A stretch of DNA of 64,000 nucleotides, taken from Candidatus Woesearchaeota archaeon. Lineage in GTDB: Archaea; Nanobdellota; Nanobdellia; Woesearchaeales; JAHWIC01. Shown piece after piece: positions 6,612 to 62,120 of the stretch (the stretch's first letter is position 1; each line of letters opens with the position of its first letter). The notes under the pieces are model-generated. The model did not search any database, was not told the origin of the DNA, and saw only the letters and a list, made by a program, of their open reading frames with translations. The position numbers were made by a program, and so were the translations under genes. Where the stretch lies: assembly GCA_019322485.1 (NCBI GenBank), contig JAHWIK010000027.1, forward strand, positions 9,871-73,870, given 5' to 3'.

Positions 6612-6652
6612 TGTAACAAATCATATTATATTTGTTACAAATTTGTAACAAA
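6612..6652. promoter_or_regulatory. Operator-like triple half-site: TGTAACAAA (6612-6620), TTTGTTACA (6631-6639), TGTAACAAA (6644-6652); 6631-6652 is a perfect 22-bp palindrome
   Basis: Read directly. TTTGTTACAAA|TTTGTAACAAA is self-complementary. The last half-site abuts the ATG (6652) of the RHH gene, and the whole site lies downstream of the TATA box. Confidence 0.65.
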
Positions 6653-14317: not shown

Positions 14318-14447
14318 ATCTGATTTTTGCTCAAAAAATCAATTTCAGAAAAATAATAAATATGATTTTTGCCTTATTCCTATCTATAAAGCAAAAATCA
14401 TCATCTGTTCTCCTTTATATCCTAGCTTAAAGGAAGGTATGCGGATA
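14318..14447 (+). repeat. Three-hairpin element, copy B (rearranged and 3'-truncated)
   Basis: AATCTGATTTTTGC at 14318-14331, then a second TGATTTTTGCC...AAGCAAAAATCA hairpin (14363-14400). The hairpin-2 remnant TCCTTTA...TAAAGGAAGGTATGCGGAT is nearly identical to copy A. Hairpin 3 is absent and the element runs straight into the TACTTACA array. Confidence 0.65.
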
Positions 14448-14644: not shown

Positions 14645-14658
14645 TTTTAAGAAGATTT

Positions 14659-19128: not shown

Positions 19129-19150
19129 GCCGCGTTTATTCGTTTTCTTA

Positions 19151-19485: not shown

Positions 19486-20085
19486 ATGGGAAAAAGAGGC
19501 AAAAAAGAGGTTTCAGCAACAGATTTGACTACAGCACATACTGAATTCCTAAAGAGTTTTTTTGCTGGCAAAGGCAAATCAGAACTTCTTGATCTCTTTG
19601 TCAAACACCTCCGAGAAGAACATAAACTAAGTATCGAAGATGTAAATAGGTTGGTGGGGGGGAAGGAGAAGGACATCCTTCTGCCAATCTCTATCTTCGA
19701 TAACAAAAAGCTTAGTGCTTTGGAAGCCATTACAAAATATCTAAAGGAAAACAAAGAACTTAGTTTTCATCAAATTGGTGTTATTCTCAATAGAAACGAG
19801 AGATGCATCTGGACAACTAATAATAATTCTAAGAAAAAAATGAAAGAGGGTTTTGTGCTTAAGCCCTCAAGGTTCCTTATTCCTGCTGACATCTTCACTA
19901 ACCGCAAGCTGAGTGTGCTTGAGAACCTTGTAAAGTATATGAAAGAAAGTTTGGAGCTTAGCCTGCATGAGATTGCTGAACTGCTGCATAGGGATGATAG
20001 AACTATCTGGACTGTTTACAGCAGAGCCACGAGAAAGCAAAAGCTTTCTGGGGTTTCAAACAAGTCTGAAACAAAGAAAAAATGA
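19486..20085 (+). CDS. Tandem HTH protein, paralog of 18601..19128
   Basis: Two modules: LPISIFDNKKLSALEAITKYLKENKELSFHQIGVILNRNERCIWTT and IPADIFTNRKLSVLENLVKYMKESLELSLHEIAELLHRDDRTIWTVYSRATRK. The 3' end is closely similar at nucleotide level to the 3' end of 18601..19128. The stop overlaps the ATG of giant 3 (ATGA, 20082-20085). Confidence 0.65.
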   Translation: MGKRGKKEVSATDLTTAHTEFLKSFFAGKGKSELLDLFVKHLREEHKLSIEDVNRLVGGKEKDILLPISIFDNKKLSALEAITKYLKENKELSFHQIGVILNRNERCIWTTNNNSKKKMKEGFVLKPSRFLIPADIFTNRKLSVLENLVKYMKESLELSLHEIAELLHRDDRTIWTVYSRATRKQKLSGVSNKSETKKK

Positions 20086-26000: not shown

Positions 26001-26732
26001 AATGTCTGTGTAGCTCCACAGCCAGCACCTGAAGAACCGATGCCTGAACCAGATGTCACGCAGATAGATGGTTATGTCCTTCTTTTAGCGCTCTTAGTTT
26101 TTATCCTGACTGTTTATCTAATATTCAGCTCTATAAAGTGGTATGCGACTAAATATATGATGGAGGAAGAGAAAGGAGAGGGGGCAGAGAAAGCAGCGAA
26201 ACCAAAGAAGAGAATGAGAATACTAAGGCACAGAAAAAAGATTGAACCAAAGGAAACTATCAAGAAGGAAATAAAAGAAAAAACTGAAGAAAGCAAAAAA
26301 GAGAGGCCGAAAACAGAAGAAAAGAAGGAAGAGGAGAAGAAAAAAGAAGAACAGCCGAAAACAGAGGAGAAGAAAGAAACAGCTCCTGCTCCAGAAAAAG
26401 AAAAAACCCCAAAAACCCCTGCTAAAAAGAAAAAAGAAAAAGTAATTGGAGGGTTAAAAGAGACCTACACCAATAGTGGAGATATATATGTTAACGCCTT
26501 CAGAAAAAGGCAGGAAGAAAATGAGTTGGCTAAGGAAGATGAAGAGACAGAGCCAATCAAAGGCATTAGGACCAATAAAGAAGATGTTCTCAATCAATTA
26601 AAGGATGCTTACAAATTAGACAGCTTAGGCCCAAAATCCAGTATCAGGATAGAGCCAAGGCAAAGTCTGCAAGATATTATTAAGGAAAAAACAGATGAAG
26701 ATGAATCAAAAAACAATGAGGTGTTCAAATGA
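20082..26732 (+). CDS. Giant surface protein 3 (2216 aa) with single C-terminal TM and ~225-aa K/E-rich cytoplasmic tail
   Basis: N-terminal TM, the split module (VRLKSLRVSGSIAGNGTARIYVENDGKKYLVLDSE ... FKEACIETCSLQGFGKHSYRMVFEVDNAVINIDKIEYAF) and the YAIDPT...LYKCKGWNF...DPGFAEI module (about 20955-21289). Also many Ig-like units delimited by D-x-T-x-P, an FN3-like GYTWIYWNWTNPGDTDF unit, a W/C module at 25744-25868, a CDDGVKNGDEEGIDCGGSCAEC motif, the TM YVLLLALLVFILTVYLIF and a Lys/Glu-rich tail. Confidence 0.85.
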   Translation: MTKGYWLRRTVFVLIALLMFAGLVKLGLSTIVKSSRPDVDFNLVVDKDSSLMLKFEREVRLKSLRVSGSIAGNGTARIYVENDGKKYLVLDSERLDEANSLDISDLEFNDGENIVGAAVNELPKKDEDSKESFDLYASPTINEALDSSDLNSAYDRSGHIIEEMDSKSKGFAEDAEASMQPSCSIEESAGDVSKSVDSSESAVLFKEACIETCSLQGFGKHSYRMVFEVDNAVINIDKIEYAFRRIWEKEEIRPELDVRDSDGKTITSSIKIKDKDGMVVSEESIEKGLYDVDVELYAGPVKSIKIENIDLDESVTDFVNVDDVPKEKEGRFVEVYAIDPTDVEFTQATVTVTAKGSSLYKCKGWNFTEQRCYGEWELFKADLIPGKEYSFILTPEDPGFAEINIIDAEHLDKNRDFISNIFNETNEQDNIWSEQINHREYIRATFEEPLTNGNVINLYLRNTQGLNTFVEIYEQDGSVVVGSTPVIGSTGMYNIELAGLSGYNDIFDLNVVNQQNTPSAYLEFDYIHDAADNVSPVISGLNINPSLEISFFGSYNFTVNVTDNNTIDLVNLSYKGINAEGGSCFQYYVNGSCENDEYYTTNMTLGDAPEYYKRDVRPDMIYPQIEFADDEIYWYNSRKGLDIYKDKYHIFKFVNNYTINANTSFWIEVDALVKSQTTRGLRVYLFDRTTTITDFQSDWTNSAKGELVAEIDNNAAKNHAHTDDNSSHHLIALTANSDGTIGTKNLNLTDSFFIALYNLEGNVNKAWNMSYRNTSLCNTSNWWLGEDSGWTTTQQEGCPDTHVHLARYNLSGSSDGVSATSCAEDNSSNSNCTTISSFFGAISNLAPVSNAINVPEPSGVYKCPINISWNEFSDPNGDTVTYNVSLLNADETFNQIINDSESSTYYVWSCGSIPDGEYSLKVEGRDPDNLSSYSTLGGNFSIDNTPPAWSNNNTYPASGIQYASGVDYQFNITWIDARAGVDAVLFEHNFTGTLNNYSSSGNISNEHYYNSTNLSAGTYVWRSYANDTLGFTNYTEQWTYIVQPDSTAPSVINVTATPSSINQTQTTNITANITDSGGLSENDILARIVNSNSDINEYNMNQDGDIWYYEFTTTSSHPGGVYNITIRARDTNNNWNESEGTTLTVNDITTPSVTNVQPDNAVRDFGSVVEITANVTDETAISAVRANVSWSGVYSFVDMHLQEDNVTYSGNFSLTNYIDTFTVQILANDTSNNLNNSETSTFNVTDESAPGYYNITAWPSSAAYSPGAAYQFNVTWTDNYAVDVVLIEHNFTGSLQNYSMNNISSEYYYNYTNLAVGSYVWRSYANDTSDNRNKTTQQSYTVDKVNSTCSLVFSQTSPQDYGTAINASCSCTNLEVSAVLYRNGTDASSENNQLVILAVGDHLYNCTTSATQNYTSAQNSSTYTINKVTSTVNLTLNGYDSNITINQTQSVTINATLVTPSSGYIELYQDSGLINSGQSPLTNTTTYNDYGTFNITVTYSETQNYSSSFETHFISVQDVISPGSVTNLEETAVGYTWIYWNWTNPGDTDFDEAIVYIDGVNEVNTSNSYYNATGLTSNTNHTISIRTKDTSGNINTTWVNDTAATLADTTVPQITSYAVTPRVVIIDRDVSITANATDDVDTPSTYANITLPNSTVLTLALQSNYTAQISGRHNVTIIANDSSGNTATETDYFIAAGPVNFTVFSEGPNSSSLEMNLTLFFPGTDEELNEHVITGNMSNEYAGYLYDLEFAALNRTIVVELGSSNLTTNNNKTMGFDKLPSPVSGYLISYGIYSTFSFGSAVVTLSYEGINYTTESNLRVFRCDNWDFDNRACSSSFESISGVQSTSANKFTLTVSSFSGFSIREVTPAAAAEEEEEGEEVWRRSRGCFFSWECGNWSECSINETERRDCTNAGTCPDTFKAPETERPCNYTPSCDDGVKNGDEEGIDCGGSCAECVECINDTDCEEDYQCMENVCVAPQPAPEEPMPEPDVTQIDGYVLLLALLVFILTVYLIFSSIKWYATKYMMEEEKGEGAEKAAKPKKRMRILRHRKKIEPKETIKKEIKEKTEESKKERPKTEEKKEEEKKKEEQPKTEEKKETAPAPEKEKTPKTPAKKKKEKVIGGLKETYTNSGDIYVNAFRKRQEENELAKEDEETEPIKGIRTNKEDVLNQLKDAYKLDSLGPKSSIRIEPRQSLQDIIKEKTDEDESKNNEVFK

Positions 26733-31057: not shown

Positions 31058-34000
31058 ATGGTGATTTTGATTAAATTTAAACACCTTCAGATGATTGCTA
31101 TTTTCCTTTGTACCTTAATAATAACTATACCTTTCTACACCAGCTCTGTTTATGCTGCAGTGAGCGGGCATATCAAAAGGTATCCAGTTGCTTATGGAAA
31201 CAGTGACGGATTCCCAGGTGCTGCAAGACAATATGATACTATCACTGTCGAAGCACTAGCCAGGATTGATGTAGATGGGGAGTCCCAGCCAGTAAGTGCA
31301 AACCAGGTAAAGCTCTATAATGAAGGCATGGATTTTGATTACTGCGACCCAGACGCAGGCGGGTATTATTTATGTTCGCTTGAGAACTATCCTTACCCTA
31401 CTGGGGGTTTCCAAGGTATAAAAAAATTTGATATAGGCCTTTACCATGAGGGCACCAGGATTGCCGTGGGCCGTGCAAGTGTTGTTCCTGATTTCAAGCC
31501 GCCAAGAATTGAGAGTTTAGCTATAACGCTGCCTAGCGAGGACGCTGTGAAAGGTATTTCAACAACAGGTACAGTCAGCGTGGATTATATTGTCAAAGAT
31601 TATGGCTATCTAAATAGCTGGAGAGACAAGGAATGTTCTGGGATATCTAAGGTTGAATTTTATCTTAACGGATTTACTGGCGGTCCTTTCAAGACTGAAA
31701 ATATAGATACTGGAGATTGTGACTATTCTGACAGTTTCAGTTTTAATGTTCCATCTAATATCATGGTGGGCACAGTAAAGGTCTGTGCAAAAGTCTATGA
31801 CAGGTTTAACCAAGCGTCTTCTGAAGAGGAAGCAAGCCCAAACTGCGTATCCTTTGGTATAGACAGGGAAGGCCCTGGCATCCAGGGAGGCAGCTTTAGG
31901 GTTGTTGATGAAGATGACAGAGATGTCTATTTCTACCACCCTAGAGGAAAGGATGTTGATGTCGTTTTTGTGATAGATGCTGAGGATTTAAACCTAGGCC
32001 AGGGATTAGGTTCAATTAGAATTGATTTAACTACCCTTGATTCTAGTAAGTTAACCAGCAGTAACCTTAACAGCGGCCAGTGCCTAAGGGCCCCAAATTC
32101 AAACCTAACTAATTGTGTAGTATCCATTAATCTTGATTCAGAGGGTGGACTTGTTACCATAACATCTACAGACAGGTATGATAATGTTGATGAGGAGTTT
32201 CTAACAGCAATCTTCACCCTTGATGAAACCGGACCGATTGTTGCGCAGTTTGTCTCTGATAGTATTTTTATGGATGGACTCTATGCCAAGCAATATGGAA
32301 ATAATTTTAGCGCCTTGATTAGCGACGGCGGCGGGATTGGTGTTGATTCTGATGATGTAAAACTGGTTTTCTATGATGGATTTTCTTATGACAGCTCACA
32401 AGACCTCAATGTAGTAACTAATTGTACTGGCACGCCTGGAGCTACAGCATGCCTTTGGGAGGGGGTTGATTTGAGTCCTGGTTCAGATATGGCTGTCAAA
32501 GCGCGAATTGAAGGAAATGACATGCTTGAGAATGCTATTGCTGCTAATGAATTTAATGTAACTGTTGATATAACACCCCCTTTGGTCACTGAGGCTGATA
32601 TCTCAATTGAAGCGCTAGGAAGTCTTACTGGAGACTTAACTAGCGGAGGCGGGATAAATATCACAGCCAGGATAAAAGATTTCACCCAGATATTTGCTCA
32701 TGCTGATCTTTCCAGGTTTATTACAGGTGGGGAGAGGGTTCCTGCTGACAGCTGCATTAAAGTTAGTGATGAATGGGCTGATGAAACTGAATGGGTATGT
32801 TCATGGCTCCGTATGATAGAAGCCCCTGGGCCTGATTCTGGCATAGATATGGATATTGAGTTTGAGGATGTTCCTGGCAATATAGTAACAGTGACAAAAA
32901 CAGGATTAGAGCTTTATGAGCGGGTTGTGGAGGAGGTTCCTGACTATTATGACCTAGATATCAGAGAGGATTTACTTGAGCTCATTCCCATTGATATGGA
33001 GGTTATTGAAAGCCTGACTACACAATTCTATTACCAACTTGTACCTTTTGAGTTATTATATAATGGCCGATGTTCTGGAGATGAGATTGAAATTACGAAT
33101 ATCAGGCTTTTTGGGTGCGAGGGGTATGCTTATCATGCTCCACGTTCCGATGACCCCAGGAGTTATACTGGCTTTATCCAGTTTGCATTAGACACAAATG
33201 AAATTATTAATTATGATGACTATGTAGAGATAGGGGTTGATTCAACCTGCCAGATAGAATTTAATGTGAAATGCCATCAAAAATCTTACTTGCAGCCTGA
33301 GCCAGAAGAGATAAGGCTCAACATACCTATAGTGGTTGGCGATGATGTTGGAGATGACCTAACAGACGATATAGAAGATTTGAAAGACTGGGCTGAAACA
33401 GATTTCTGGGCAATGTGGGAATTCATGGACCAAGTGGTGACTATACTGAAGAATATATGCAAGATAAGGCAGCATATATACCTGATAGCAACGACAATAG
33501 CGCTTATTGGAGCTATTTTCGCTAATTGTTGTGAAAAAGGTGCTGCAGCATCTGCATACTGCTGCCCAGCTGAGATTACTTCAAGCGGGATACATATAAC
33601 ATTTACTGAACCTCAGGAGGCTGGAGCACCAGGAACTACTTTTGAAGATAAGATGAAAAAACTTTGTGCCTTTGTTGGCTGCCAGAAAAAAGACGAGCCA
33701 GGCCTTAGAGCAGAAGACCTCCCTAGCGATACTGCTGGTGCCGGTGATGATGCTCCTGACCCAACACCTAGGGAACTACTTTGCAACAAGCTTGCAAAGC
33801 TAGGCAAAAATTGGATTACTGAATATGACTTTGGTAGTTCCGGCGCTGCACAAGGTGCGGAAACTTATGTAGATGCTGCATGGTCAACATCTGTCTTACA
33901 ATTATCAATGAAAAGCCTTATTTTTGCATCAATCTGCTTATGTCTTCCAGGGATAGTATATAATGTAAGGAAATATAGAGAGCTTGTATGCTGGAAAGCT

Positions 34001-34378
34001 ATCTGTTACAGAGACCTTGTTACACTTGGTCTGCCAAAAGATGAATGCGATAAACAGTATGAATACCATATGTGTGTTTATGTCCTAGGTGATGCTATTG
34101 GATGGCTGTTGTTTAATTTTATTGGAGCTGCGATACAGGCAATAGTACAAATGTTGATTAATCCTGTTGCAGCCCTGTGGGCATGGACTCGTACTGGGCT
34201 GCTTAGGAAGTGCCATACATCTCTTTCAAAAACAGTAAAATGGAGTACATGGTGCGCTGCGTATGCAGTCTGGCAATTGCTCACAAACATCGCAGAAATT
34301 GCAGAGCTTGAAGAGACCTATGAGAATATGAAGTGGGACCATGAAACAAACATGTGCGAAGAGCTTTTAGATGATTGA
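31058..34378 (+). CDS. Family A1: signal peptide + Ig-like array + Cys-rich polytopic C-terminal domain (1106 aa)
   Basis: Signal MIAIFLCTLIITIPFYTSSVYA. Units are delimited by DFKPPRI, DREGPGI, DETGPIV and DITPPLV. C-terminus: IYLIATTIALIGAIFANCC ... ICLCLPGIVYNVRKYRELVCWKAICY ... ECDKQYEYHMCVYVLGDAIGWLLFNFIGAAIQAIV. Paralogous to 43343 and 50680. Confidence 0.8.
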   Translation: MVILIKFKHLQMIAIFLCTLIITIPFYTSSVYAAVSGHIKRYPVAYGNSDGFPGAARQYDTITVEALARIDVDGESQPVSANQVKLYNEGMDFDYCDPDAGGYYLCSLENYPYPTGGFQGIKKFDIGLYHEGTRIAVGRASVVPDFKPPRIESLAITLPSEDAVKGISTTGTVSVDYIVKDYGYLNSWRDKECSGISKVEFYLNGFTGGPFKTENIDTGDCDYSDSFSFNVPSNIMVGTVKVCAKVYDRFNQASSEEEASPNCVSFGIDREGPGIQGGSFRVVDEDDRDVYFYHPRGKDVDVVFVIDAEDLNLGQGLGSIRIDLTTLDSSKLTSSNLNSGQCLRAPNSNLTNCVVSINLDSEGGLVTITSTDRYDNVDEEFLTAIFTLDETGPIVAQFVSDSIFMDGLYAKQYGNNFSALISDGGGIGVDSDDVKLVFYDGFSYDSSQDLNVVTNCTGTPGATACLWEGVDLSPGSDMAVKARIEGNDMLENAIAANEFNVTVDITPPLVTEADISIEALGSLTGDLTSGGGINITARIKDFTQIFAHADLSRFITGGERVPADSCIKVSDEWADETEWVCSWLRMIEAPGPDSGIDMDIEFEDVPGNIVTVTKTGLELYERVVEEVPDYYDLDIREDLLELIPIDMEVIESLTTQFYYQLVPFELLYNGRCSGDEIEITNIRLFGCEGYAYHAPRSDDPRSYTGFIQFALDTNEIINYDDYVEIGVDSTCQIEFNVKCHQKSYLQPEPEEIRLNIPIVVGDDVGDDLTDDIEDLKDWAETDFWAMWEFMDQVVTILKNICKIRQHIYLIATTIALIGAIFANCCEKGAAASAYCCPAEITSSGIHITFTEPQEAGAPGTTFEDKMKKLCAFVGCQKKDEPGLRAEDLPSDTAGAGDDAPDPTPRELLCNKLAKLGKNWITEYDFGSSGAAQGAETYVDAAWSTSVLQLSMKSLIFASICLCLPGIVYNVRKYRELVCWKAICYRDLVTLGLPKDECDKQYEYHMCVYVLGDAIGWLLFNFIGAAIQAIVQMLINPVAALWAWTRTGLLRKCHTSLSKTVKWSTWCAAYAVWQLLTNIAEIAELEETYENMKWDHETNMCEELLDD

Positions 34379-34421
34379 GGTGAATATTAAATATCAATAA
34401 AAACAAATCATTAAAAAAATA

Positions 34422-34546
34422 TGATTTTTGCTTGATGCAAACGTTAAAGCAAAAATCATCCGCAGTGTTCCTTTATGCCTCAGCCTAAAGGAAAGCAAGC
34501 GGATGAAAATTCCTTTATACTAAGGAAGAAGGGAATTTTCAGATTT
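34422..34546 (+). repeat. Three-hairpin intergenic element, copy C
   Basis: H1 is TGATTTTTGCTT/AAGCAAAAATCA (12 bp). H2 is CATCCGC/GCGGATG with inner TTCCTTTA/TAAAGGAA. H3 is GAAAATTCC/GGAATTTTC. All arms checked by hand as exact reverse complements. Confidence 0.85.
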
Positions 34547-34580
34547 GATTGTCATAATTAACAATAAATCAAGAACAAAA

Positions 34581-36224
34581 ATGTCAGAACAATCAGCCAT
34601 ATCAAAAGTAACCTTTATCCTAGTGTTTGTTGTAATTGCTATGCTGACTGCCAGCTGGTCTGGCTTGAAGAATATGGGCAGTGCAGCAAGTATTACTGGT
34701 GCAGTAACTTATTCTGATGGAGATATAATGGTTGTAGGTTATGATGATGGTACTACCTTCACATATCAGTATGATGATGGAAATTGGTACGGCACTCATT
34801 CCGGGCCGGATGCCCCCCCAGCTAATATGGACGCAATAATAGACCGTGCTAGTGGACGTGATGACTTTGATGTTACATTGAATTCTGGTGGAGAAATAAC
34901 AAAAATGGACGATGATAGTGGAGCAGGAGATGATGGCGGCGCTGGAGGAGGAGATGACGGTGGTGGTGACGCAACAGCTGGAGCAGGAGATGCTGGAGGA
35001 GATAGTAGTGGCGCTGGAGGAGATACACCTGCTACACCAGACCCCTATGAAGTAGACACCGATGGGGATGGGTTTAGTGATGGACAGGAAGCTGAGCATC
35101 AGACTGACCCTAATAACCCGGATTCCCATGGTGAAGGTATGGGCGATATAGAAGCTATGAGTGATGATGACGAGGATGCAGAGGAGCAAGACGACGCAGC
35201 ATCCGATGCAGCTGACAGGGGATGGGGTGCAGCAGAACAAGCTTACGCAACAATGCATCCTGGTGCTGGTGACCTGGCATGGCAGGGATATTGGGAAGAT
35301 ATAGTTGGACAGGATTTGTCCTTTGTTAATGCTGAAGACCTGCCTGACTGGGCAGCTTATTCCTTAGAAGGGTATGAAGGCTATATATGCGAGCGGATGC
35401 TTGGTTTTGAAACATCAGATTATTTCGTACAGGATTATCCTGGGCATTACCAGGGGGGTGATTTCCCTTCTATTACTAATATTATCTATGCTACTGGTGA
35501 AAGGACGCATTATCCCGTACAACAATTTACAGAATGTACTGGGAATAGTGATTATTATGATGGAGAATGGTTCCCTAAGATTACTGCAACTGGTGCAACT
35601 GCCCCTACTGCTGCGGATGCACTAGGTTACTTGTATAAGTTTTCATGGTATGTTGGCCATCCTTTCAGCGAAGACCAGATTGATGAGATGCAGGGGTGGG
35701 AGATTGATGATGAAGGTCTTGACCACAATGGGAATCTGTCATATAAGATATACTTGTTTACTTATCAGTGTGATGACCCAGATGCGTTGGATGTAGACGT
35801 CCCTACACTATCTGATGGGGCAAAAGCTTATATCCTGCCTAGTGAGGCAACATCCTTTAAGGTGAACCCAGGAGCATATCATTCATATACTCATTCATTT
35901 TATGACAAAGCATATATTTATAAGATTTGCATTAGATTTGACAATGACTATGGATGGTCACATGATGGAGATATTGAGGGTTCATGGCCTCCAGAATGTA
36001 AACCAAGCGATATAGATGGTGATGGTGGGTTGGTAGTTGAGTCAACTTCAACTCTTAGCATGCCTCCTGGATTTAATTTCTTCCCGCCAGATACAACCAG
36101 CGCGGGAAGCACTGATGACGGGGTGACATCTACAACAACAAGCGGCAGTGATGGTGACCCTCAGGACTGCACTAGTTGTCCTGCCGGGTTGCAGGGCGGC
36201 GGCGATGTTTGGGAAACTGGATAA
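34581..36224 (+). CDS. Family B1: N-anchored acidic protein with TSP type-3-like Ca-binding repeat and shared C-terminal domain
   Basis: The track start at 34545 is a TTG inside the repeat element, and the first ATG is 34581 (MSEQSAISKVTFILVFVVIAMLTA...). D/G-rich region; DTDGDGFSDGQEAEHQTDPNNPDS resembles a thrombospondin type 3 / bacterial Ca-binding repeat. The C-terminal GYLYKFSWYV and YIYKICIRFDND match B2. Confidence 0.75.
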   Translation: MSEQSAISKVTFILVFVVIAMLTASWSGLKNMGSAASITGAVTYSDGDIMVVGYDDGTTFTYQYDDGNWYGTHSGPDAPPANMDAIIDRASGRDDFDVTLNSGGEITKMDDDSGAGDDGGAGGGDDGGGDATAGAGDAGGDSSGAGGDTPATPDPYEVDTDGDGFSDGQEAEHQTDPNNPDSHGEGMGDIEAMSDDDEDAEEQDDAASDAADRGWGAAEQAYATMHPGAGDLAWQGYWEDIVGQDLSFVNAEDLPDWAAYSLEGYEGYICERMLGFETSDYFVQDYPGHYQGGDFPSITNIIYATGERTHYPVQQFTECTGNSDYYDGEWFPKITATGATAPTAADALGYLYKFSWYVGHPFSEDQIDEMQGWEIDDEGLDHNGNLSYKIYLFTYQCDDPDALDVDVPTLSDGAKAYILPSEATSFKVNPGAYHSYTHSFYDKAYIYKICIRFDNDYGWSHDGDIEGSWPPECKPSDIDGDGGLVVESTSTLSMPPGFNFFPPDTTSAGSTDDGVTSTTTSGSDGDPQDCTSCPAGLQGGGDVWETG

Positions 36225-36242: not shown

Positions 36243-38609
36243 ATGAAAAAAAGAGGTGTAGCCTTTAAAAAAGGCCAGATAACTGTATTTATAATAATTG
36301 GGATTCTCTTATTAGTTTCTATTTCTACAGTGGTATATTTTAGAGGGAGGGCAGTCAAGGATATACCTATAGAAGAATTTGTTGAGGTGCCAGAGGTTGC
36401 AGCAGAGCTTGTGCCTATTGATTTGTTTGTGAAATCATGCATTAGAAGAAAGATTGAGGGGCCTGATGGTCCTCTTAAAGGCGCCCTTAGGATAGCTGAA
36501 GAGCATGGCGGCTATATCTACCAGGAAGAATTACAGCCCGATTATATGTCCCCAACAGAAGGCAATGCTATTGAGTATCTGCCTAACTCTGGTATACTAA
36601 TACCCTACTGGTATTATATGAAAAGCCCGAATTATTGCCAAAGTAACTGCAAATTTGACACAATGATGCCGCCATTATGCAAGCCTTCACCAAGAGAGTG
36701 TGTCAATGAAGGCCAGGGCTCAATTGAAGAGCAGCTGGAGCGGTATTTATTAGAAAATATTGATGAATGCTTGGCTGGTTTTGCGGAAACAGAGAAACAG
36801 GGCTTTGAGGTGACTGAGCTTGGTGAGCCCCAGGCTAATGTGATAATAAGGGACAGGGATGTGCTAGTCAGGCTTTACTATCCCTTAAGCATAGAAAAGG
36901 AAGGAGCTACTGGCGGGATAGATGATTTTGTAGTGACAATAAGAAGCGACATAAAAGAGCTGTATACAATGGCTTATGAGATGGCTAAATATGACATGAA
37001 TAACTGCTTTATTGGCAAACATATACAAAACCATATTTCATACTCTGCAGGGCTAGGGGCTGGTAAACTGCCTCCAATCTATGAGCTTACTATAGGAGAG
37101 CCTTCCATGCAAATATGGTCTTTAGAGAATGTCAAGCAGCTTTTGAAATATAGAATAGTTGGAGCTGTTCAGTTAATTGGCGTGTTTTACACAAAAGGGT
37201 TTACCTGGCCAACATACCATGACCCAAATGACCCATATTACTCAACAAGACAGGGAATCCTTGACAATCAGGTTTTCAGGCCATTTGATACCTTCCATGA
37301 TGCTACTGTGATTTTTAATTACCTTCCGTGGTGGGATATCTATCTTGACATAAAACCAAGCAGTGGCGGTGTACTAATGCCTTCTGACTTTGGCATGGAT
37401 GCAGGAAGTTTCGCTACATTAATAGGTACAATATCACAGACAAAGACCTACAAATTCTCTTATCAATACTCATTCCCTACAGTGGTTGATATAAGAAAAC
37501 TGGATTATAGGAATGATGAGCATGTTTTCAGGTTTGCGCTTGAGGCAAATGTCAGGGCTAACAGATGCTTCAGTCCAAACATTACCATGACTTACACCAG
37601 GGATGCCTTTGCCACAGGATTATGCGATTATGTACAGGCTAGAAGGAATGCCACTATTAATGTAAAGGAGATTACGCGCGAATTTGGAAATTATGTCCAA
37701 CATCCAGTGGATGAGGTTAAGGTTACTTTCTTTGCAGGCACTACCTGCTTGCTAGGATTCACTGATGAAAATGGTATTATTGAAGCCAAATATCCAGCTG
37801 CTTATGGCGCGCAAATGAAATTTGCTAAAAGAGGCTATGCTGAAAAGATTGTAGATGTCTCTGATATTAGTGATGGTGCAACAGTCATCATAAATAAACT
37901 AAGAACATACAATGCAACAGTAAAGCACTTTAAGATGAACCGCGACAGAAGCTTGCCTCAATCAGGGGTAGACCTTGAGCCAGGGGAAACTGTGGTAATC
38001 ATGCTAAAGAAAGCTGACTACCCAGAAATACCGAGCCAAGTAGTGTCATTTGATGGCAGCTCTGAAACAAATATGACCTTAGATCTGATTGAGGGTAATT
38101 ATGAGATTAGCGCGCAGTATTTTAAGCGCAGCCCCTTTAGTTTACCTCCAATGTGCATCCATATATGTAATCATGGAACATTTTCACAGCCAAGCACTGA
38201 TTCATGGGATGCTGTAAACAACGTGCCAACAAGCAAGTGCTTTGATGATGATTGTACTCCCGGAGGGGATTGTTATGGATATAGCACTGAACTTATTGAT
38301 TTAGGTGCTTATGTCGAATGTTGCAATCAGGCCAATGAATGGATTCCTGAAGATCCAGTTAATATTTCACTCATGGGCGGGGCTAAATTTGACCAAGATT
38401 TAGGTTACTGGACACTAACTGAAGGGCATTATTATGACCCAAGGGGCACAATAGAATTTAATGTGCTAAGCCAACCAGACCCTGACTGCGTTTCGGCTGA
38501 TGATTGTGTTGTACCTGACTGCATAGGCTATAGTGATGACCTTAGTGCTTTGGGTACCTATTATGAAACACACTGGAGTACACTTAGGCCAAGTTTAGTT
38601 TTTGGATAA
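36243..38609 (+). CDS. Family C1: 788-aa protein with class III (type IV pilin-like) signal-peptide-like N-terminus
   Basis: MKKRGVAFKKGQITVFIIIGILLLVSISTVVYF. The shared core FVKSCIRRKIEG...GGYIYQ...PTEGNAIEY...IPYWYYM... aligns with C2 and C3. Confidence 0.8.
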   Translation: MKKRGVAFKKGQITVFIIIGILLLVSISTVVYFRGRAVKDIPIEEFVEVPEVAAELVPIDLFVKSCIRRKIEGPDGPLKGALRIAEEHGGYIYQEELQPDYMSPTEGNAIEYLPNSGILIPYWYYMKSPNYCQSNCKFDTMMPPLCKPSPRECVNEGQGSIEEQLERYLLENIDECLAGFAETEKQGFEVTELGEPQANVIIRDRDVLVRLYYPLSIEKEGATGGIDDFVVTIRSDIKELYTMAYEMAKYDMNNCFIGKHIQNHISYSAGLGAGKLPPIYELTIGEPSMQIWSLENVKQLLKYRIVGAVQLIGVFYTKGFTWPTYHDPNDPYYSTRQGILDNQVFRPFDTFHDATVIFNYLPWWDIYLDIKPSSGGVLMPSDFGMDAGSFATLIGTISQTKTYKFSYQYSFPTVVDIRKLDYRNDEHVFRFALEANVRANRCFSPNITMTYTRDAFATGLCDYVQARRNATINVKEITREFGNYVQHPVDEVKVTFFAGTTCLLGFTDENGIIEAKYPAAYGAQMKFAKRGYAEKIVDVSDISDGATVIINKLRTYNATVKHFKMNRDRSLPQSGVDLEPGETVVIMLKKADYPEIPSQVVSFDGSSETNMTLDLIEGNYEISAQYFKRSPFSLPPMCIHICNHGTFSQPSTDSWDAVNNVPTSKCFDDDCTPGGDCYGYSTELIDLGAYVECCNQANEWIPEDPVNISLMGGAKFDQDLGYWTLTEGHYYDPRGTIEFNVLSQPDPDCVSADDCVVPDCIGYSDDLSALGTYYETHWSTLRPSLVFG

Positions 38610-40668: not shown

Positions 40669-40973
40669 TGGATTTATTTTAATTTGATATTATTTAAATG
40701 TTATTGTTTGCTGGATAGTCAATAAGAAAAAAATAATCACTAACTGCACAAACACTGTAGCCAACCAAAGGTTGGTTACTGTACAGAGTTTCACCTTATT
40801 TATTTTTAATTTGTTTTAATAATCTAAAATTAAAAAATATCAACACAACCATATGTACAACTAGTTCTGCATCTTTTTCTGCACCCAATGATAGATTCTT
40901 AGGGTGATAATTAAAATCAAGGTGCGCAAACAATTCTAATAAATTTTTTAGAAAGATTTAAATATATGCAAAG

Positions 40974-41065
40974 TTTAGTATAAATATAGTATATATAAAG
41001 TATAAAGTAGTCGACAAAAAAAGAGAAAGGTTTATATATTTATACATTATTTAGTATAAATATAG
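40974..41065 (+). promoter_or_regulatory. Two exact 16-nt direct repeats TTTAGTATAAATATAG (40974-40989, 41050-41065) bracketing the promoter of the second RHH operon
   Basis: Read directly. The two copies are 76 nt apart start to start and flank the BRE/TATA-like element at 41023-41037. Confidence 0.6.
41023..41037 (+). promoter_or_regulatory. BRE/TATA-like promoter element (AGAAAGGTTTATATA)
   Basis: Consensus match 47 nt upstream of the ATG at 41084. A second similar box, AGAAAGATTTAAATA, lies at 40950-40964. Confidence 0.5.
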
Positions 41066-41083
41066 GCTTAATTAAGCATAAAA

Positions 41084-41248
41084 ATGAGTGTACAGATACG
41101 AATTACAGTCTCTAAAGAGATAAACGAACTTCTCGAAAAGGTAGCTAAGAAACTCGGCAAAAAGAAGTCAATGCTAGCTAGAGAGCTGATGGAGCAGAAG
41201 CTATACGACTTAGAATTGATTCAAAAAAAATTTGGTGAGCTAAAATAA
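41084..41248 (+). CDS. Ribbon-helix-helix (CopG-like) protein, 54 aa (not in the ORF track)
   Basis: Hand translation: MSVQIRITVSKEINELLEKVAKKLGKKKSMLARELMEQKLYDLELIQKKFGELK*. It has a beta-strand (IRITVS) plus two helices. The stop TAA (41246-41248) overlaps the ATG (41248) of C2 as TAATG. Confidence 0.7.
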   Translation: MSVQIRITVSKEINELLEKVAKKLGKKKSMLARELMEQKLYDLELIQKKFGELK

Positions 41249-46300: not shown

Positions 46301-46387
46301 GCTGGTCTGATTGCAGATGTTGCATCAGACCTTGAAGGTATTGGTGACCAGTGGGAAATAAAGGACGATTATTGTGATAATATTTGA
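43343..46387 (+). CDS. Family A2 (about 1014 aa)
   Basis: The track start at 43334 is TTG, and the first ATG is 43343, 1 nt after the C2 stop. Signal LIALFMSSLMIMIPMYSASILA. Units are delimited by DNNAPDV, DRTAPVI, DDAGPVI and DATKPAL. C-terminus: TLTLCLPGIVYNLNKLRQIQCMYVDC...ACEDQKEYATCKYWWGEIF. Confidence 0.8.
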   Translation: MSIKQLKLIALFMSSLMIMIPMYSASILAYTGIKRIEASGQDGIEGYIRNEDAIDFRVIANIDDDLDGVTSDQVKIPEAAVEFSSCMPGLEGYECELRLPDTGTWTYRDLNRIPVLLYDEGDNQVGGRTATLVVDNNAPDVRFFSILPKLTSSGDMTFTYSVEDYAYRKGDSSRCVGLDRIVFYTFDSSFVEQVNIDTDDCDVSGSVSVDNSILPEGGNVIYVKAVDKFEQESEPEEDSIVIDRTAPVIGSLKIVDTNGNSIDYIGSDTIKGEVIVNISGPGLDTNSVAGDFSELNYERGNYKNLRAVICNVLHDTALCSWSVELKLDSGGMKYMTINASDNVGNKATVSLSKGFVFDDAGPVINGITTDKIHGGISYASSQDNTFVASISEPGVGVDASNVFLHIGSLFLPADSCEADACYWYEVGIGQEGSVRVWIGDDTTDRLGNAAEEFSTDIIVDATKPALTSLNVKTIGGVLPAYRYVKTFDSLEITAEIVEANVITEAYGDFSSIIDGADKVLADECTKTDGTYTCKWTTDPIDVEGYIDSSIDFSFIDISGNVLTASAPVEVYELIDTELDYWKHDVSCSPELIDRQTTALVNHRIYCHIGLSGNAETIDINLEGCDGPTEYLEEAPVLFNDEIGSTDPYLKFTLRAEELTISELEFDCKLRIVSKISERITRYPEVENVSIQIGFYNLPLGEYGAGVDKKIEDAKEFAWYIGDWVEDVNEILHYGQAICNMANSLIKLFGGLSAIGSALSLLGTTSKTADEVRKEVQRAQQGVSGLTKEQWAKSEGFNKFCKFFSCRLYYDDAFEGPTAEAIGKWQRTVLERANWVSTGGGKIRAIEAWSNKENRNKMNIYTGKLNPKESIVISTLTLCLPGIVYNLNKLRQIQCMYVDCMQTYATQGLPLKACEDQKEYATCKYWWGEIFQLLPFTGLWNEMIGMVKKALSSPFGFIDIVLGYVCRPLYEKDKMGGPAAICLINDIAGLIADVASDLEGIGDQWEIKDDYCDNI

Positions 46388-46389
46388 AA

Positions 46390-48786
46390 ATGGATAAAGC
46401 AAGACTATTGAAGATTGGAATTTTGTTCGTGATAATTTTGGTAATCTGCAGTGGGATTGTTTATGCTGCTGATTCTACCACAAAGAAGGTCACTATAAAA
46501 GGTGTAGATTATTACTATTCTGAAGAAGACCGTGCGGCAAATAAGGGAACGAAATCAACTAGTGTATACCTTGACCCTAAGTTAGAGAATAAAGCAAAAA
46601 GCTGGATAAAAACAGATGGGTCATTTGAAAGGCAACCTGAAACTCCTGAAGAAAGTGCAGAGTGGGCCCAAGGCCAATATTATGTTAATCAATTCGGTAA
46701 AGCTGCAGAAAGCTTTGACCCGACCAAAGCAGAAACAGTTGTGACAGCAGCGCCTGCTGCGCCAGCAGCAGCTGAGCCGGCGGCGGCAGAACCTGCTGAA
46801 GAAGGTTTCAAGCGTGAGGGGCAGGTTGGTACAGGCAAGCCCAGCGGTACAGGAGCCACACCTTCTGGAAAGAAATATTATTTTGACACGAGTGGTGATG
46901 GCAGTGCATTCTATCTCTCAAAAGAAGCAGACCAAAACAAGGCTGATGGATTAGACCATTTAGAATCAGTCACGAAAGAACAATACGATGCAATCAGAGG
47001 AGCGCCCAAAGGCTCAACCTTTACTTATGATGACAGTAAACCAGATGATAAGATAGTTTCTATAACGCATGAATCAAAAGGTACTACAACAACAACCAGA
47101 GTAAGTGGAAGCGGAAGCAAAACCAAAGAGACCAAAATAACAAGAGAAGGGAAGTCTTTCACAACTACTACAGATGTAAAAGGAAAGACTGTAGCAGTAA
47201 AATATGAAGGGATGGAACTAAGCCCATCAACAGAATGGAAAGTAAACAAAGATGGCCAACTAACCTATGATGGCCAGGTTGCAGAAAGCAAGGGTGGCAC
47301 CCTAGGAGAAACATTTGTGCTTAAGGATGGAAGGATGATTATAGCTTACTCAGCAGACCCTGGAAAGGACGAGCCAGGTGCAACAGTCGAGATATCTGCT
47401 GATAAATCGAGTATAAATGTTGCAGTCCCAGGAAGGAAGGACCAGCCGATAACCACAGCGGACTGCAAAAGGGTATTAGGATTTAGCATGGAAACAATTC
47501 TCAAGATGGCAGATGCTGAACTGATTGCTGATGAACTCCATAGGGCAGGTATACTTACCAACATAGGCTCTGTTTTCGAAATCCTTGAAAATGAAGGAAT
47601 AGGCTTAAGTGATATCATCAGTGGAAACGTGAAAGATGGAGTTTATACTTCGGGGAATGTAAAGATTGAATTTAAACCAGACGGCACAGTAGAAATCCAA
47701 AGAGTAACCAGCCCTGGAGCAAGATTTGATGAGAAAGGAAAACTGCCAGAAGGAACCGAATATGAAAGGGTTATAAAAAATGATGATAAGAGGGTAACTG
47801 AGATAGTCACTGTAACTGCAGGCAAAGAAGGAGCAACTGAAGAAGATGAAGAAACAAGGGCTAAATGGAATTATGTAGAGGGAAAGACTACTGGAACTGC
47901 CACGATTCCTGGTGTGGGGGAGGATGTTGAATTTGAATATAATGAAAATACTGGAAACATCATCTGGTACAAAGTCGATGATAAATATTACAGAGTAGAA
48001 GATGGAAGATGGTTTGAGGATGACAAGTTCACAAAACCGTGCACAGAGGGCTGCCCAAGTGCAGAGGCAACAGGCGCTCTAAGAACTACAGATGATAAAA
48101 AAGCATCTGCAGAGAACAGGATTACATCAACTGGGAGGTACATCCAAAGGTTCTGGGGTGCCTTAGAAACAGCTGCCAGGGGCGGTATTGGGAGGTTCTT
48201 AAGCCTTTTCATGGACGATGAAGATCTTAGAGAATGGAGAGAGGGAGTTGACGATTTCCTCTGCTCAACAGTTATTGCTGGCGGCACTGAATGCTGGACT
48301 TCTGGGATATGCGGCAAATGGATTGATGACAGGTTTGGCGGCGGGATAGCATATGTGGAAATACCGGGTGGAATGCTCAATATTGCAGCTCATATTGAAG
48401 GAGAACGAACAGTGGTAGAGTCCCCAGAAAAAACACAATACCTGTATAAATTCACTTATGTTATAAACAACCCTCTCAAGGAAGGGCTTGGCTTTAATGT
48501 CTATTTTTATGGTGATAGAACAACTAGTTTATACAGCGAAGATATGAAATTAGAAAAAGGAGCATCTACCTCAAGGATAGGAAACTCTGCTGTTGTCCAA
48601 TATTCTGATTATTATTACACCAGGGCATGCATTGTATTTAACAGACCAATAAAGGTTGCTGGCGACACAATAACACAGTTATGCAACAAGATAACAGAGT
48701 ACCACGGCCCAGCACTTAGTATCAAATCAATTGGGGAGCGACAAGATAAACTGGAAGAGGAAGGAATAGTAGAAAACCAGATATAA
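46390..48786 (+). CDS. Family B2 (about 798 aa)
   Basis: The track start at 46384 is TTG, and the first ATG is 46390, 2 nt after the A2 stop. N-terminal anchor LLKIGILFVIILVICSGIVYA, an Ala/Pro linker, a Thr/Lys-rich region, and a C-terminal domain with QYLYKFTYVI and YYTRACIVFNRP. Confidence 0.75.
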   Translation: MDKARLLKIGILFVIILVICSGIVYAADSTTKKVTIKGVDYYYSEEDRAANKGTKSTSVYLDPKLENKAKSWIKTDGSFERQPETPEESAEWAQGQYYVNQFGKAAESFDPTKAETVVTAAPAAPAAAEPAAAEPAEEGFKREGQVGTGKPSGTGATPSGKKYYFDTSGDGSAFYLSKEADQNKADGLDHLESVTKEQYDAIRGAPKGSTFTYDDSKPDDKIVSITHESKGTTTTTRVSGSGSKTKETKITREGKSFTTTTDVKGKTVAVKYEGMELSPSTEWKVNKDGQLTYDGQVAESKGGTLGETFVLKDGRMIIAYSADPGKDEPGATVEISADKSSINVAVPGRKDQPITTADCKRVLGFSMETILKMADAELIADELHRAGILTNIGSVFEILENEGIGLSDIISGNVKDGVYTSGNVKIEFKPDGTVEIQRVTSPGARFDEKGKLPEGTEYERVIKNDDKRVTEIVTVTAGKEGATEEDEETRAKWNYVEGKTTGTATIPGVGEDVEFEYNENTGNIIWYKVDDKYYRVEDGRWFEDDKFTKPCTEGCPSAEATGALRTTDDKKASAENRITSTGRYIQRFWGALETAARGGIGRFLSLFMDDEDLREWREGVDDFLCSTVIAGGTECWTSGICGKWIDDRFGGGIAYVEIPGGMLNIAAHIEGERTVVESPEKTQYLYKFTYVINNPLKEGLGFNVYFYGDRTTSLYSEDMKLEKGASTSRIGNSAVVQYSDYYYTRACIVFNRPIKVAGDTITQLCNKITEYHGPALSIKSIGERQDKLEEEGIVENQI

Positions 48787-61895: not shown

Positions 61896-61914
61896 AAAAT
61901 ATCAATAAAAAATA

Positions 61915-62044
61915 AATCTGATTTTTGCTTAAGGAGTATGTTAAAGCAAAAATCATCCACTGCAGTCCATTATATTCTAACTTAAAGGGAAGTAAGTGGA
62001 TGAAAATTCCTTTATAGTGGTTGTGAAGGGAATTTTCAGATTTA
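61915..62044 (+). repeat. Three-hairpin intergenic element, copy D
   Basis: H1 is CTGATTTTTGCTT(A)/(T)AAGCAAAAATCA. H2 is CATCCAC/GTGGATG, a compensated change relative to copy C. H3 is GAAAATTCC/GGAATTTTC. Closing AAATCTG/CAGATTT. Confidence 0.85.
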
Positions 62045-62120
62045 ATTGTTTTAATTAATAATAAATCAAAACAATAAATTTATATAATGGTTAGAATTAA
62101 CTTTTTTCTGGGGTGGTTAG

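What the first reader, a model, noticed from the sequence alone, without database searches (positions are those of the whole stretch)
34379..34580. Three-hairpin element sits exactly in the A1-B1 junction that is only 2 nt long in the paralogous operon
In the second module, A2 stop (46387) and B2 start (46390) are separated by 2 nt. In the first module the equivalent A1 stop (34378) and B1 ATG (34581) are separated by 202 nt. That gap consists almost entirely of element copy C plus its conserved flanks (ATATCAATAAAAA... upstream, CAGATTTGATTGTCATAATTAACAATAAATCAAGAACAA downstream, both shared with copy D). An occupied versus empty site comparison of this kind is the classic signature of insertion of a mobile (MITE-like) element. 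Alternatively it could reflect acquisition of an intercistronic processing or terminator structure that uncouples B1 from A1.
Basis: partly seen in the sequence, partly recalled or inferred. Interest (0 to 1): 0.7.

Follow-up and report, generated by a model that had tools for sequence, protein, structure and literature searches.

The report
Mobile three-hairpin repeat between two genes
The 202-base gap between two genes is one copy of a small non-coding repeat that is scattered through the intergenic DNA of a group of tiny-genome archaea; this is an ordinary kind of selfish DNA, though this family appears not to have been described before.

Summary
A1 ends at 34378 and B1 starts at 34581. The 202-nt spacer is almost entirely a three-hairpin element (fold z = -6.6), and three more copies lie in the window (6321-6458 minus strand, 14355-14446, 61911-62045).

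It is not a private feature of this operon. The same element occurs at 57 or more sites in a related Woesearchaeota MAG and on 60 metagenome contigs. Every copy examined is intergenic, and copies lie in either orientation relative to the flanking genes. No Rfam, phage or plasmid match was found.

Three orthologous intergenic sites are empty in one genome and filled in a relative, which shows gain or loss. I found no target-site duplication and no transposase.

The hairpin stems are nearly invariant, the loops differ in almost every copy, and a few stem changes are compensated.

The A1-B1 versus A2-B2 comparison is weak evidence: B1 and B2 are not detectably homologous, gene order differs between the modules, and no A1-B1 orthologue exists to test.

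Best reading: a MITE/BOX/BIME-like mosaic repeat inserted into a tight gene string. It probably acts as a structured transcript boundary and may give B1 its own promoter; both effects are inferred, not shown. This is a new member of a known kind, of modest interest.

The parts
31058..34378 (+). Gene A1 (1106 aa, signal/TM N-terminus, no Pfam, NCBIfam or PDB match); stop codon TGA at 34376-34378
34379..34420 (+). 5' flank of copy C: A-rich DNA with two ATCAWTA boxes (34393-34399, 34407-34413) and a degenerate 5' terminal inverted repeat (AAAAAATAT; family consensus AATAAATCY)
   Evidence: In the window's intergenic DNA these boxes occur only beside element copies.
34421..34459 (+). Hairpin H1: ATGATTTTTGCTT / AAGCAAAAATCAT with a variable loop. 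The stem is invariant across the family apart from a compensated GAGTTTTGC/GCAAAACTC variant.
34460..34502 (+). Hairpin H2 (long form): outer stem CCGC/GCGG, inner stem TTCCTTTA/TAAAGGAA. This is the most variable module, and pairing is kept through compensatory changes.
34505..34540 (+). Hairpin H3: GAAAATTCCTTT / AAGGGAATTTTC with a variable loop and an invariant stem
34541..34580 (+). 3' module: the 3' terminal inverted repeat (AGATTTGA) followed by roughly the first 35 nt of the promoter/leader-like 'R1' module. It contains an AT-rich TATA-like stretch TCATAATTAAC (34552-34562) 20-29 nt upstream of the B1 ATG. No Shine-Dalgarno-like motif is present.
   Evidence: The promoter function is an inference.
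34581..36224 (+). Gene B1 (547 aa): orphan with a TSP3 repeat, a Gly/Asp-rich repeat and an N-terminal hydrophobic segment
6321..6458 (-). Copy A: full three-hairpin core on the minus strand, in the 597-nt spacer 6219-6815. It is followed at 6247-6330 by a further repeat module (hairpin GTTGCCGAGTGGAACGAGCGCAAC).
14355..14446 (+). Copy B: H1 and H2 only, H3 missing. It is preceded by a mini-H1 remnant GATTTTTGCTCAAAAAATC at 14322-14340.
61911..62045 (+). Copy D: full core between the nucleotidyltransferase gene (stop at 61895) and the CBS-domain gene (ATG at 62121). The CBS gene keeps its own TATA box TTTATATAA downstream of the element.
46385..46392 (+).

Best explanation
The A1-B1 spacer is copy C of a dispersed, modular, non-coding repeat family found in Woesearchaeales-type (DPANN) archaea.

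Anatomy of a full unit:
- 1-4 ATCAWTA boxes in A-rich DNA;
- an 8-11 bp terminal inverted repeat (AATAAATCYGA ... TCRGATTTATT);
- three adjacent hairpins whose stems are almost invariant and whose loops differ in nearly every copy;
- a 3' module that, in its long form ('R1'), behaves like a promoter/leader cassette.

Origin (shown for the family, inferred for this copy): units are gained or lost as blocks of about 180-330 bp in intergenic DNA, in either orientation. They appear even between genes that in relatives are 4-50 nt apart. Copy C most likely arrived in this way, in a gene string whose other junctions are all 20 nt or less. The enzyme responsible is unknown.

Consequence at this locus (inferred): read-through RNA would fold into a -47 to -53 kcal/mol three-hairpin or four-way-junction structure carrying U-tracts. 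I think this most likely forms a 3'-end barrier or termination point for A1. B1 has no Shine-Dalgarno-like motif and sits 20-29 nt downstream of a TATA-like box carried by the element's 3' module. It is then expressed either by read-through or as a leaderless transcript from that box.
For: Family membership: four copies in the window; 57 or more distinct sites in Woesearchaeota MAG Yap2000.bin4.8; 60 metagenome contigs.

Host identity: archaeal RNase P Rpr2 subunit; MetRS 79-81% identical to contigs from a Nanoarchaeota MAG (L078) and an SMTZ1 metagenome contig (L082).

Position: all 51 copies examined are intergenic, and orientation relative to neighbours is unbiased (17 same/same, 14 opposite/opposite, 7 between convergent genes, 5 between divergent genes).

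Block gain or loss at orthologous sites:
- MetRS->A1 spacer is 85 nt (window) and 78 nt (L078) but carries an extra ~330-nt unit in L082.
- L076 has a 50-nt spacer where L110 has an extra 180 nt between co-directional genes.
- L048 has convergent genes 4 nt apart where L057 and L097 have an extra 266 nt.
- At copy D's site a relative with 93% and 84% identical flanking proteins carries a copy with a different loop, a different H2 form, an extra nested element and a compensated H1 stem.

Structure: fold z = -6.6; 91.4% of cells paired against 37-61% when partners are slid; two H2 pairs with 6/22 double changes.

Tight junctions elsewhere in both gene strings.

R1 module: followed by an ORF start within 41-149 nt in 18/24 cases against 3/24 in the reverse direction. 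Copies C and D carry its first ~35 nt.
Against: No target-site duplication: flank direct repeats are no longer than in mismatched controls (8.5 against 8.4 nt, p = 0.35).

No transposase or multi-copy ORF was found in the 885 kb held or in the window.

Nearly every copy is unique (52 combinations among 53 copies). That is unlike a recent MITE burst and points to long-term constraint.

The orthologous A1-B1 junction could not be examined, so insertion at this particular site is inferred by analogy.

The terminator and promoter effects have no transcript evidence. A bacterial-type terminator scan found nothing. Five copies lie between divergent genes, where a terminator is not needed.
Confidence: 0.7

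Rival explanations
1. The element is a host-selected punctuation signal rather than merely selfish DNA. On this reading it is a bidirectional transcript boundary (terminator, insulator or mRNA 3'-end stabiliser), or a binding platform for a sequence-specific hairpin-binding protein, kept by selection at most intergenic sites where it sits. This overlaps with the best explanation; the difference is who benefits.
For: The H1 and H3 stems are invariant, while the loops and H2 differ in almost every copy (45, 51 and 46 distinct variants among 53 copies).

Compensated stem variant GAGTTTTGC/GCAAAACTC occurs in 6 copies, including the orthologue of copy D.

H2 shows double changes.

The element sits next to the stop codon of the gene transcribed toward it, with gaps mostly 14-72 nt, in either orientation.

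Both strands fold well and both offer T5 tracts.
Against: The distribution over co-directional, convergent and divergent spacers (31:7:5) shows no obvious enrichment at convergent gene ends; I did not compare it with the genome's own mix of spacer types. Five copies lie between divergent genes.

A related genome (CP070655.1) gave only one exact-pattern hit, and its orthologous sites are empty, so the element is dispensable.

Stem conservation can equally reflect selection for mobilisation competence.
Confidence: 0.3
2. The element is mobilised as single-stranded DNA through its hairpins. It would then be a REP/RAYT-like element or an IS200/IS605-derived palindrome-associated element (PATE) rather than a classical TIR/DDE MITE.
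For: No target-site duplication.

Conserved hairpins lie next to both ends and the element has strong polarity.

The named strand is mildly favoured: 42/64 copies fold better on it, and there are 25 G-T against 12 A-C mismatches in the stems.

The sequence just 5' of H1 is conserved (AATAAATCY).

The mosaic, nested organisation resembles BIMEs. A second small element inserts at one exact position in H3.
Against: The two end hairpins differ in sequence (GATTTTTGC against GAAAATTCC). The ends do form an inverted repeat (P1 is 79% paired).

No Y1/HUH transposase gene was seen near any copy.

There is no GTAG-type REP head.

The strand bias is weak (p about 0.05).
Confidence: 0.2
3. The element is a family of independently transcribed small RNAs, so copy C would be a small-RNA gene lying between A1 and B1.
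For: Stable conserved structure with clear polarity.

Copy A lies on the strand opposite to both of its neighbours, in a long spacer.
Against: There is no conserved promoter at a fixed distance upstream: the ATCAAT boxes lie 18-29 nt from H1.

Orientation is random relative to neighbours.

Whole units, flanks included, are present or absent as blocks.

The variable loops match neighbouring sequence no better than loops taken from other copies.

No Rfam match.
Confidence: 0.05
4. The 202-nt spacer is ancestral to the A-B junction, and the 2-nt A2-B2 junction is the derived state.
For: This cannot be excluded directly, because no orthologous A1-B1 junction is available.
Against: B1 and B2 are not homologous, so there is no shared A-B junction to be ancestral.

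All other junctions in both gene strings are 20 nt or less.

The spacer is made of a repeat that is demonstrably gained or lost elsewhere.
Confidence: 0.08

Closest known systems
BOX elements (with RUP and SPRITE) of Streptococcus pneumoniae
   Same: Modular, non-coding intergenic repeats built from separable sub-units. They fold into stable stem-loops, cluster together and insert into one another (review PMC10969869). Here the parallels are modules that can be present or absent (boxes, H1-H3, R1, the R3 hairpin) and an 89-nt element nested in H3.
   Different: No sequence similarity. The host here is archaeal. The core is a fixed three-hairpin unit rather than an A-B(n)-C array. No candidate transposase is known.
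Correia elements (CREE) of Neisseria
   Same: About 100-200 bp in size, with terminal inverted repeats, high copy number and mostly intergenic positions. They are often co-transcribed, can carry outward promoters, and their RNA is cleaved at the paired ends (PMC10969869). Here there is a promoter/leader-like 3' module and ends that can pair.
   Different: From my own knowledge, Correia elements have 26-bp TIRs, a TA duplication and an IHF site. Here the TIR is 8-11 bp, no duplication is detectable and three internal hairpins dominate.
REP/BIME elements of enterobacteria and pseudomonads
   Same: Extragenic hairpins with conserved stems and variable loops, assembled into mosaics with other motifs. 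They lie just after stop codons in either orientation and are themselves targets of other insertion elements (my own knowledge: IS1397 and IS621 target REPs). The nested element at a fixed H3 position is the parallel here.
   Different: REPs are 20-40 nt G+C-rich palindromes with a GTAG head, mobilised by RAYT. Here the hairpins are A+T-rich and 37-45 nt long, have no GTAG, and no RAYT was found.
Archaeal MITEs (Sulfolobus SM1-4, Halobacterium, Haloquadratum PATEs)
   Same: Small non-autonomous repeats in archaeal intergenic DNA (PMC10969869). A bulk census already recorded very high MITE density, 105 per Mb, in 'a Woesearchaea genome' (PMC11602168).
   Different: Those families trace to known IS families with matching ends. 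This family has no identified parent IS, and its stems are conserved across genomes whose coding DNA differs by 15-28%.

Membership tests
MITE (miniature inverted-repeat transposable element) | Small (about 50-500 bp), non-coding, multi-copy and dispersed | tested here: met
   Core of 120-137 nt and units of 180-330 nt. Four copies in the window, 57 or more sites in one MAG and 60 metagenome contigs.
MITE (miniature inverted-repeat transposable element) | Terminal inverted repeats | tested here: met
   AATAAATCYGA ... TCRGATTTATT. The P1 stem is 79% paired over 8 positions in 22 copies. In copy C only 5 of 8 positions pair.
MITE (miniature inverted-repeat transposable element) | Target-site duplication flanking each copy | tested here: inconclusive
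   Longest flank direct repeats are no better than mismatched controls (8.5 against 8.4 nt, p = 0.35). One copy (L110) has a 16-nt repeat. A 2-4 bp duplication would be invisible in this A+T-rich DNA.
MITE (miniature inverted-repeat transposable element) | Presence/absence polymorphism at orthologous sites | tested here: met
   Three sites: MetRS-A1 (L082 against window and L078), L110 against L076, and L057/L097 against L048.
MITE (miniature inverted-repeat transposable element) | A parent insertion sequence or transposase with the same ends | tested here: inconclusive
   None among 421 ORFs in element-bearing loci, none in the window, and no multi-copy ORF family. Whole genomes could not be scanned.
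REP/BIME | 20-40 nt imperfect palindrome with a conserved GTAG head | tested here: not met
   The hairpins are 37-45 nt, A+T-rich and have no GTAG head.
REP/BIME | Associated RAYT (Y1/HUH) gene flanked by the repeats | not testable with these tools
   None seen in the held loci.
IS200/IS605-derived PATE | Subterminal hairpins, no TIR, no duplication, and a fixed short target 5' of the left end | tested here: inconclusive
   Hairpins at both ends and no duplication fit. However, the ends form an inverted repeat, and the conserved 5' neighbour is mirrored at the 3' end.
Any Rfam RNA family (riboswitch, ribozyme, sRNA, C/D box) | Covariance-model match at or near the gathering score | tested here: not met
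   No match in the window or in six related loci. The best sub-threshold hit scored 17 bits against a cut-off of 54.
Integron attC site | A single imperfect hairpin at the 3' end of co-oriented cassettes | tested here: not met
   The element has three hairpins, and the flanking genes lie in all relative orientations.
Bacterial-type intrinsic terminator | G+C-rich stem directly followed by a T-run | tested here: not met
   The scan of 34000-35000 found none. Archaeal oligo-T termination is not covered by that scan.

The most novel reading that the evidence does not exclude
The family may not be mere junk but a DPANN-specific, REP-like punctuation system. On this reading, sequence-invariant hairpins are recognised by a dedicated protein (a RAYT-like enzyme or a host factor) and are kept because they delimit transcripts in both directions in a very compact genome. 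A second, young element that recognises hairpin H3 and inserts at one exact nucleotide would then point to an active hairpin-targeting, site-specific transposition mechanism in these archaea.
Probability: 0.2. Interest if true: 0.6.

Novelty: new member of a known kind. Interest (0 to 1): 0.35.

Why it matters
For this locus, the gap is explained. It is a repeat copy, not a bespoke regulatory invention, and the 'paralogous operon' comparison should not be over-read.

More broadly, Woesearchaeales-type genomes are about 1 Mb with roughly 94% coding density. They nevertheless tolerate dozens of copies of a mosaic intergenic repeat that can split tight gene strings and carries promoter-like cassettes.

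This matters in several practical ways:
- Operon calls in these genomes may be wrong where a copy interrupts a gene string.
- The repeats are likely to affect metagenome assembly.
- Insertion polymorphisms can serve as strain markers.
- The family is a possible source of natural promoter and terminator parts for organisms that have no genetic tools.

The nested element that always lands at the same base of hairpin 3 is the most promising lead to an actual mobilisation mechanism.

Tried and rejected
- **Known RNA families:** Rfam at gathering and permissive thresholds on the window and six related loci gave nothing. tRNA/tmRNA scan gave nothing.
- **Motifs inspected by eye:** hammerhead, C/D-box/K-turn, BHB and attC resemblances were rejected because the defining cores or contexts are absent.
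- **Orthologous A1-B1 junction:** B1 has no homologue. A1 has one, on a truncated palindromic contig. The window's own contig is not on record.
- **Transposase hunt:** ORF clustering and Pfam on flanking ORFs and on the rest of the window found only housekeeping genes.
- **Target-site duplication:** no signal.
- **Closing stem:** covariation at the Y/R position of P1 is absent (C/G 9, C/A 9, U/A 9, U/G 3; read).
- **Variable loops as local guides:** no excess sense or antisense matches within 1.5 kb.
- **Other collections:** viral contigs, phage and plasmid collections gave no match.
- **Function of A1, B1 and their neighbours:** no Pfam, NCBIfam or PDB match of use.
- **Alignment A4:** it mixes both strands of each site, so I did not use it for pair counts.

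Full report
**1. The observation**

A1 (31058-34378) ends with TGA and B1 starts with ATG at 34581, giving a 202-nt gap. A2 ends at 46387 and B2 starts at 46390.

The gap folds into three adjacent hairpins: H1 34421-34459, H2 34460-34502 and H3 34505-34540. The MFE is -53.5 kcal/mol, against -28.5 +/- 3.8 for shuffles (z = -6.6).

Repeat finding, alignment and a covariance model run without filters all agree on four sites in the window:
- A, 6321-6458, minus strand;
- B, 14355-14446, lacking H3;
- C, 34414-34548;
- D, 61911-62045.

Each site scores much better on one strand than on the other, so the element has polarity. Copies C and D also share their flanks, with 77% identity over 170 nt.

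**2. The paralogue argument**

A1 and A2 are real paralogues (26% identity over about 1000 residues, E = 2e-66). B1 and B2 are not detectably related.

The 36243-38609 family member lies after B1 in the first string but before A2 in the second. The two junctions are therefore not equivalent sites, and 'occupied versus empty' cannot be read from them.

One thing does hold. Every other junction in both gene strings is 20 nt or less, or an overlap. The 202-nt spacer is the only interruption.

**3. What the element is**

A scan of one genome per species with the H1 pattern found 77 stretches.
- About 40 are in a single MAG, Candidatus Woesearchaeota archaeon Yap2000.bin4.8.
- One is in CP070655.1 and one in a Methanosarcinales-labelled contig.
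- The rest are an unrelated 30-nt hairpin family in Bacteroidales, or chance hits.

Profile searches raise the Yap MAG count to 57 distinct sites, 43 of them full length, in the roughly 300 kb held. A second pattern that avoids H1's 5' arm found 60 metagenome contigs and no viral contig. Plasmid, phage and Rfam searches are negative.

The window itself is from a related but different organism. Coding DNA is about 72% identical to the Yap MAG. MetRS is 79-81% identical to Nanoarchaeota/SMTZ contigs. An archaeal RNase P Rpr2 subunit is present.

**4. Anatomy of the family**

From 5' to 3', a unit consists of:
- A-rich DNA with one to several ATCAWTA boxes;
- a terminal inverted repeat AATAAATCYGA;
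- H1 (GATTTTTGCTT / AAGCAAAAATC);
- H2, in a long form (as in the window) or a short form;
- H3 (GAAAATTCCTTT / AAAGGAATTTTC);
- the matching inverted repeat TCRGATTTATT;
- one of several 3' modules.

MFE folds of most copies give a four-way junction closed by the inverted repeats. In the window's intergenic DNA the ATCAWTA boxes occur only beside copies.

The commonest 3' module, R1, carries AT-rich boxes and the palindrome GTGCACAACTAATTGTGCAC. It is followed by an ORF start 41-149 nt downstream in 18 of 24 cases, against 3 of 24 in the opposite direction, so it behaves as a promoter/leader cassette. Copies C and D have only its first ~35 nt. The window has no full R1.

**5. Evolutionary behaviour**

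*(a) Position.* All 51 copies examined are intergenic. Their orientation relative to neighbours is unbiased: 17 same/same, 14 opposite/opposite, 7 between convergent genes and 5 between divergent genes. The element usually begins 14-72 nt after the stop codon of the gene transcribed toward it. This argues against a strand-specific 5'-UTR or 3'-UTR RNA.

*(b) Gain and loss at orthologous sites.*
- The MetRS-A1 spacer is 85 nt in the window and 78 nt in L078. L082 (MetRS 81% identical) has an inverted unit of about 330 nt between the stop codon and the conserved A1 promoter region.
- L076 has a 50-nt spacer where L110 has 180 nt more, between co-directional genes. This is a direct analogue of A1-[C]-B1.
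- L048 has convergent genes 4 nt apart where L057 and L097 have 266 nt more.
- At copy D's site, L135 (flanking proteins 93% and 84% identical) also has a copy in the same orientation. It differs in its H1 loop, has a compensated H1 stem (GAGTTTTGC/GCAAAACTC), a short H2, a nested 89-nt element and a full R1. The CBS gene keeps its own TATA box.

*(c) Diversity.* Nearly every copy is unique: 45 H1 loops, 51 H2 sequences and 46 H3 loops among 53 copies, giving 52 combinations. The H1 and H3 stems, by contrast, are essentially invariant. Part of that invariance comes from how the copies were fished, but it is still seen for the arms that the search patterns left free.

*(d) Pairing.* On 22 long-form copies, 91.4% of cells pair, against 37-61% when partners are slid. 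Two H2 pairs show double changes in 6/22 sequences. One-sided changes are mostly U-G.

*(e) Strand preference.* G-T mismatches outnumber A-C mismatches 25 to 12 in the hairpins, and 42 of 64 copies fold better on the named strand. This is a weak preference.

*(f) Missing hallmarks.* There is no target-site duplication beyond chance. No transposase or multi-copy ORF lies nearby.

**6. How it most likely works**

*Shown:* it is a dispersed repeat that is gained and lost as a block in intergenic DNA, including inside tight gene strings.

*Inferred, mobility:* it is mobilised in trans by an unidentified enzyme that reads the conserved ends or stems. Conservation of stems with free loops fits selection for mobilisation competence as well as it fits host function.

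*Inferred for this locus:* RNA read through from A1 would carry a very stable three-hairpin structure with U-tracts (T5 in H1, T4 and T3 at and after H3). I take this as a probable 3'-end barrier or termination point.

B1 lacks the GGTGAT-type Shine-Dalgarno motif seen before other genes here. Its ATG lies 20-29 nt downstream of the TATA-like TCATAATTAAC in the truncated R1, at the position where full R1 modules continue into their leader. A leaderless B1 transcript from an element-borne promoter is therefore plausible.

My estimates are: repeat-family membership about 0.97, origin by insertion about 0.8, the boundary-plus-promoter effect about 0.3.

**7. Comparison with known systems**

The element works like BOX/RUP/SPRITE, Correia, ERIC and REP/BIME elements. 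All are small, structured, modular intergenic repeats that nest, carry promoters or terminators, and are processed or stabilising in RNA (review PMC10969869).

As a MITE it meets the criteria of size, copy number, inverted repeats and site polymorphism. Duplication and a parent IS are unresolved. It fails the REP definition (no GTAG head, wrong size, no RAYT seen) and the attC definition.

A bulk census recorded very high MITE density in 'a Woesearchaea genome' (PMC11602168). I found no description of this family or its architecture.

**8. Verdict**

The finding is real and explained. The spacer is a copy of a previously uncharacterised but conventional kind of mosaic interspersed repeat. It is a new member of a known kind, of modest interest. 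The more interesting open points are what enzyme moves it, why the stems are so rigidly conserved, and what inserts the nested element at one exact base of H3.

Noticed in passing
L072:3633-3721, L135:3045-3133, also L003, L019, L024, L036, L050, L066, L138: A near-identical 89-nt two-hairpin element (TAGTAAACGCAA...TTGCGTTTACTA, then TAGTAAGCGAAA...TTTCGCTTACTA) is inserted at exactly the same position of hairpin H3 (GATGAAAATT^CC). It occurs in at least 9 host copies that differ in their H2 and loop sequences. This suggests young, site-specific targeting of the hairpin. It is absent from the window.
   Followed up: partly
L072:3750-3850, L135:3160-3260, about 46 sites in the held loci: Conserved 'R1' intergenic module: AATTGTTATTAAAT...AAAGTGATAAAAAC, then the palindrome GTGCACAACTAATTGTGCAC, then CTGAAAGTAAACCTAGTGAT and TGAT boxes. 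It lies upstream of many unrelated genes and also occurs without the three-hairpin core. It looks like a shared promoter/leader or operator.
   Followed up: partly
L001, L002, L004, L007, L008, L016 and others (contigs CAYVWX01, BDTH01, JANTGU01): An unrelated repeat in Lentimicrobiaceae/Bacteroidales MAGs: GTTTTGGCGG-GATTTTTGCCGCATGGCAAGCAAAAATC-ATGACAAAAC, often followed by a second hairpin. It lies about 60-110 nt upstream of ATG codons and frequently near contig ends.
   Followed up: no
L048 (CP070655.1): This 1.14-Mb 'Candidatus Omnitrophota bacterium' chromosome aligns at 77-85% nucleotide identity over kilobases with the Woesearchaeota MAG, and it carries one copy of the element. The taxonomic label looks wrong.
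   Followed up: no
L078 (JBHPFR010000015.1): The contig is an inverted duplication: MetRS and the A1 homologue are followed by the same genes mirrored. This is probably an assembly artefact, and it truncates the only A1 homologue.
   Followed up: no
window 14476-14650, 19147-19387, 40933-41082: Arrays of 'TACTTACAT / ATGTATAAATA' motifs spaced about 40-75 nt apart fill the long spacers upstream of the giant surface-protein genes (14659-18600 and 19486/20082-26732). They may be promoter or regulator binding arrays. A looser AT-rich 'TAGTATAAATATAG' repeat occupies part of the divergent spacer 40669-41247.
   Followed up: no
window 18601-19128 and 19486-20085: Two paralogous small proteins (38% identical). 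The first has a C-terminal HTH similar to sigma-70 region 4. They sit immediately next to the giant secreted-protein genes.
   Followed up: no
window 6816-12749, 14659-18600, 20082-26732: Three giant (1313-2216 aa) paralogous secreted proteins share a 73%-identical segment (DNA 8616-8915 against 15865-16164, 79%). The first carries CBM96 and disaggregatase-related repeats.
   Followed up: no
window 14322-14340; also left flanks in L040, L042, L058, L065, L075: Mini-H1 remnants (AATAAATCYGATTTTTGC-YC-AAAATCAAT) lie just upstream of full copies. They look like internally deleted units or footprints.
   Followed up: no
window 34919-35028: B1 contains a 12-nt-period Gly/Asp-rich tandem repeat next to a bacterial TSP3 (calcium-binding) repeat. 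Apart from that repeat the protein has no homologue in 5.8 billion sequences.
   Followed up: no
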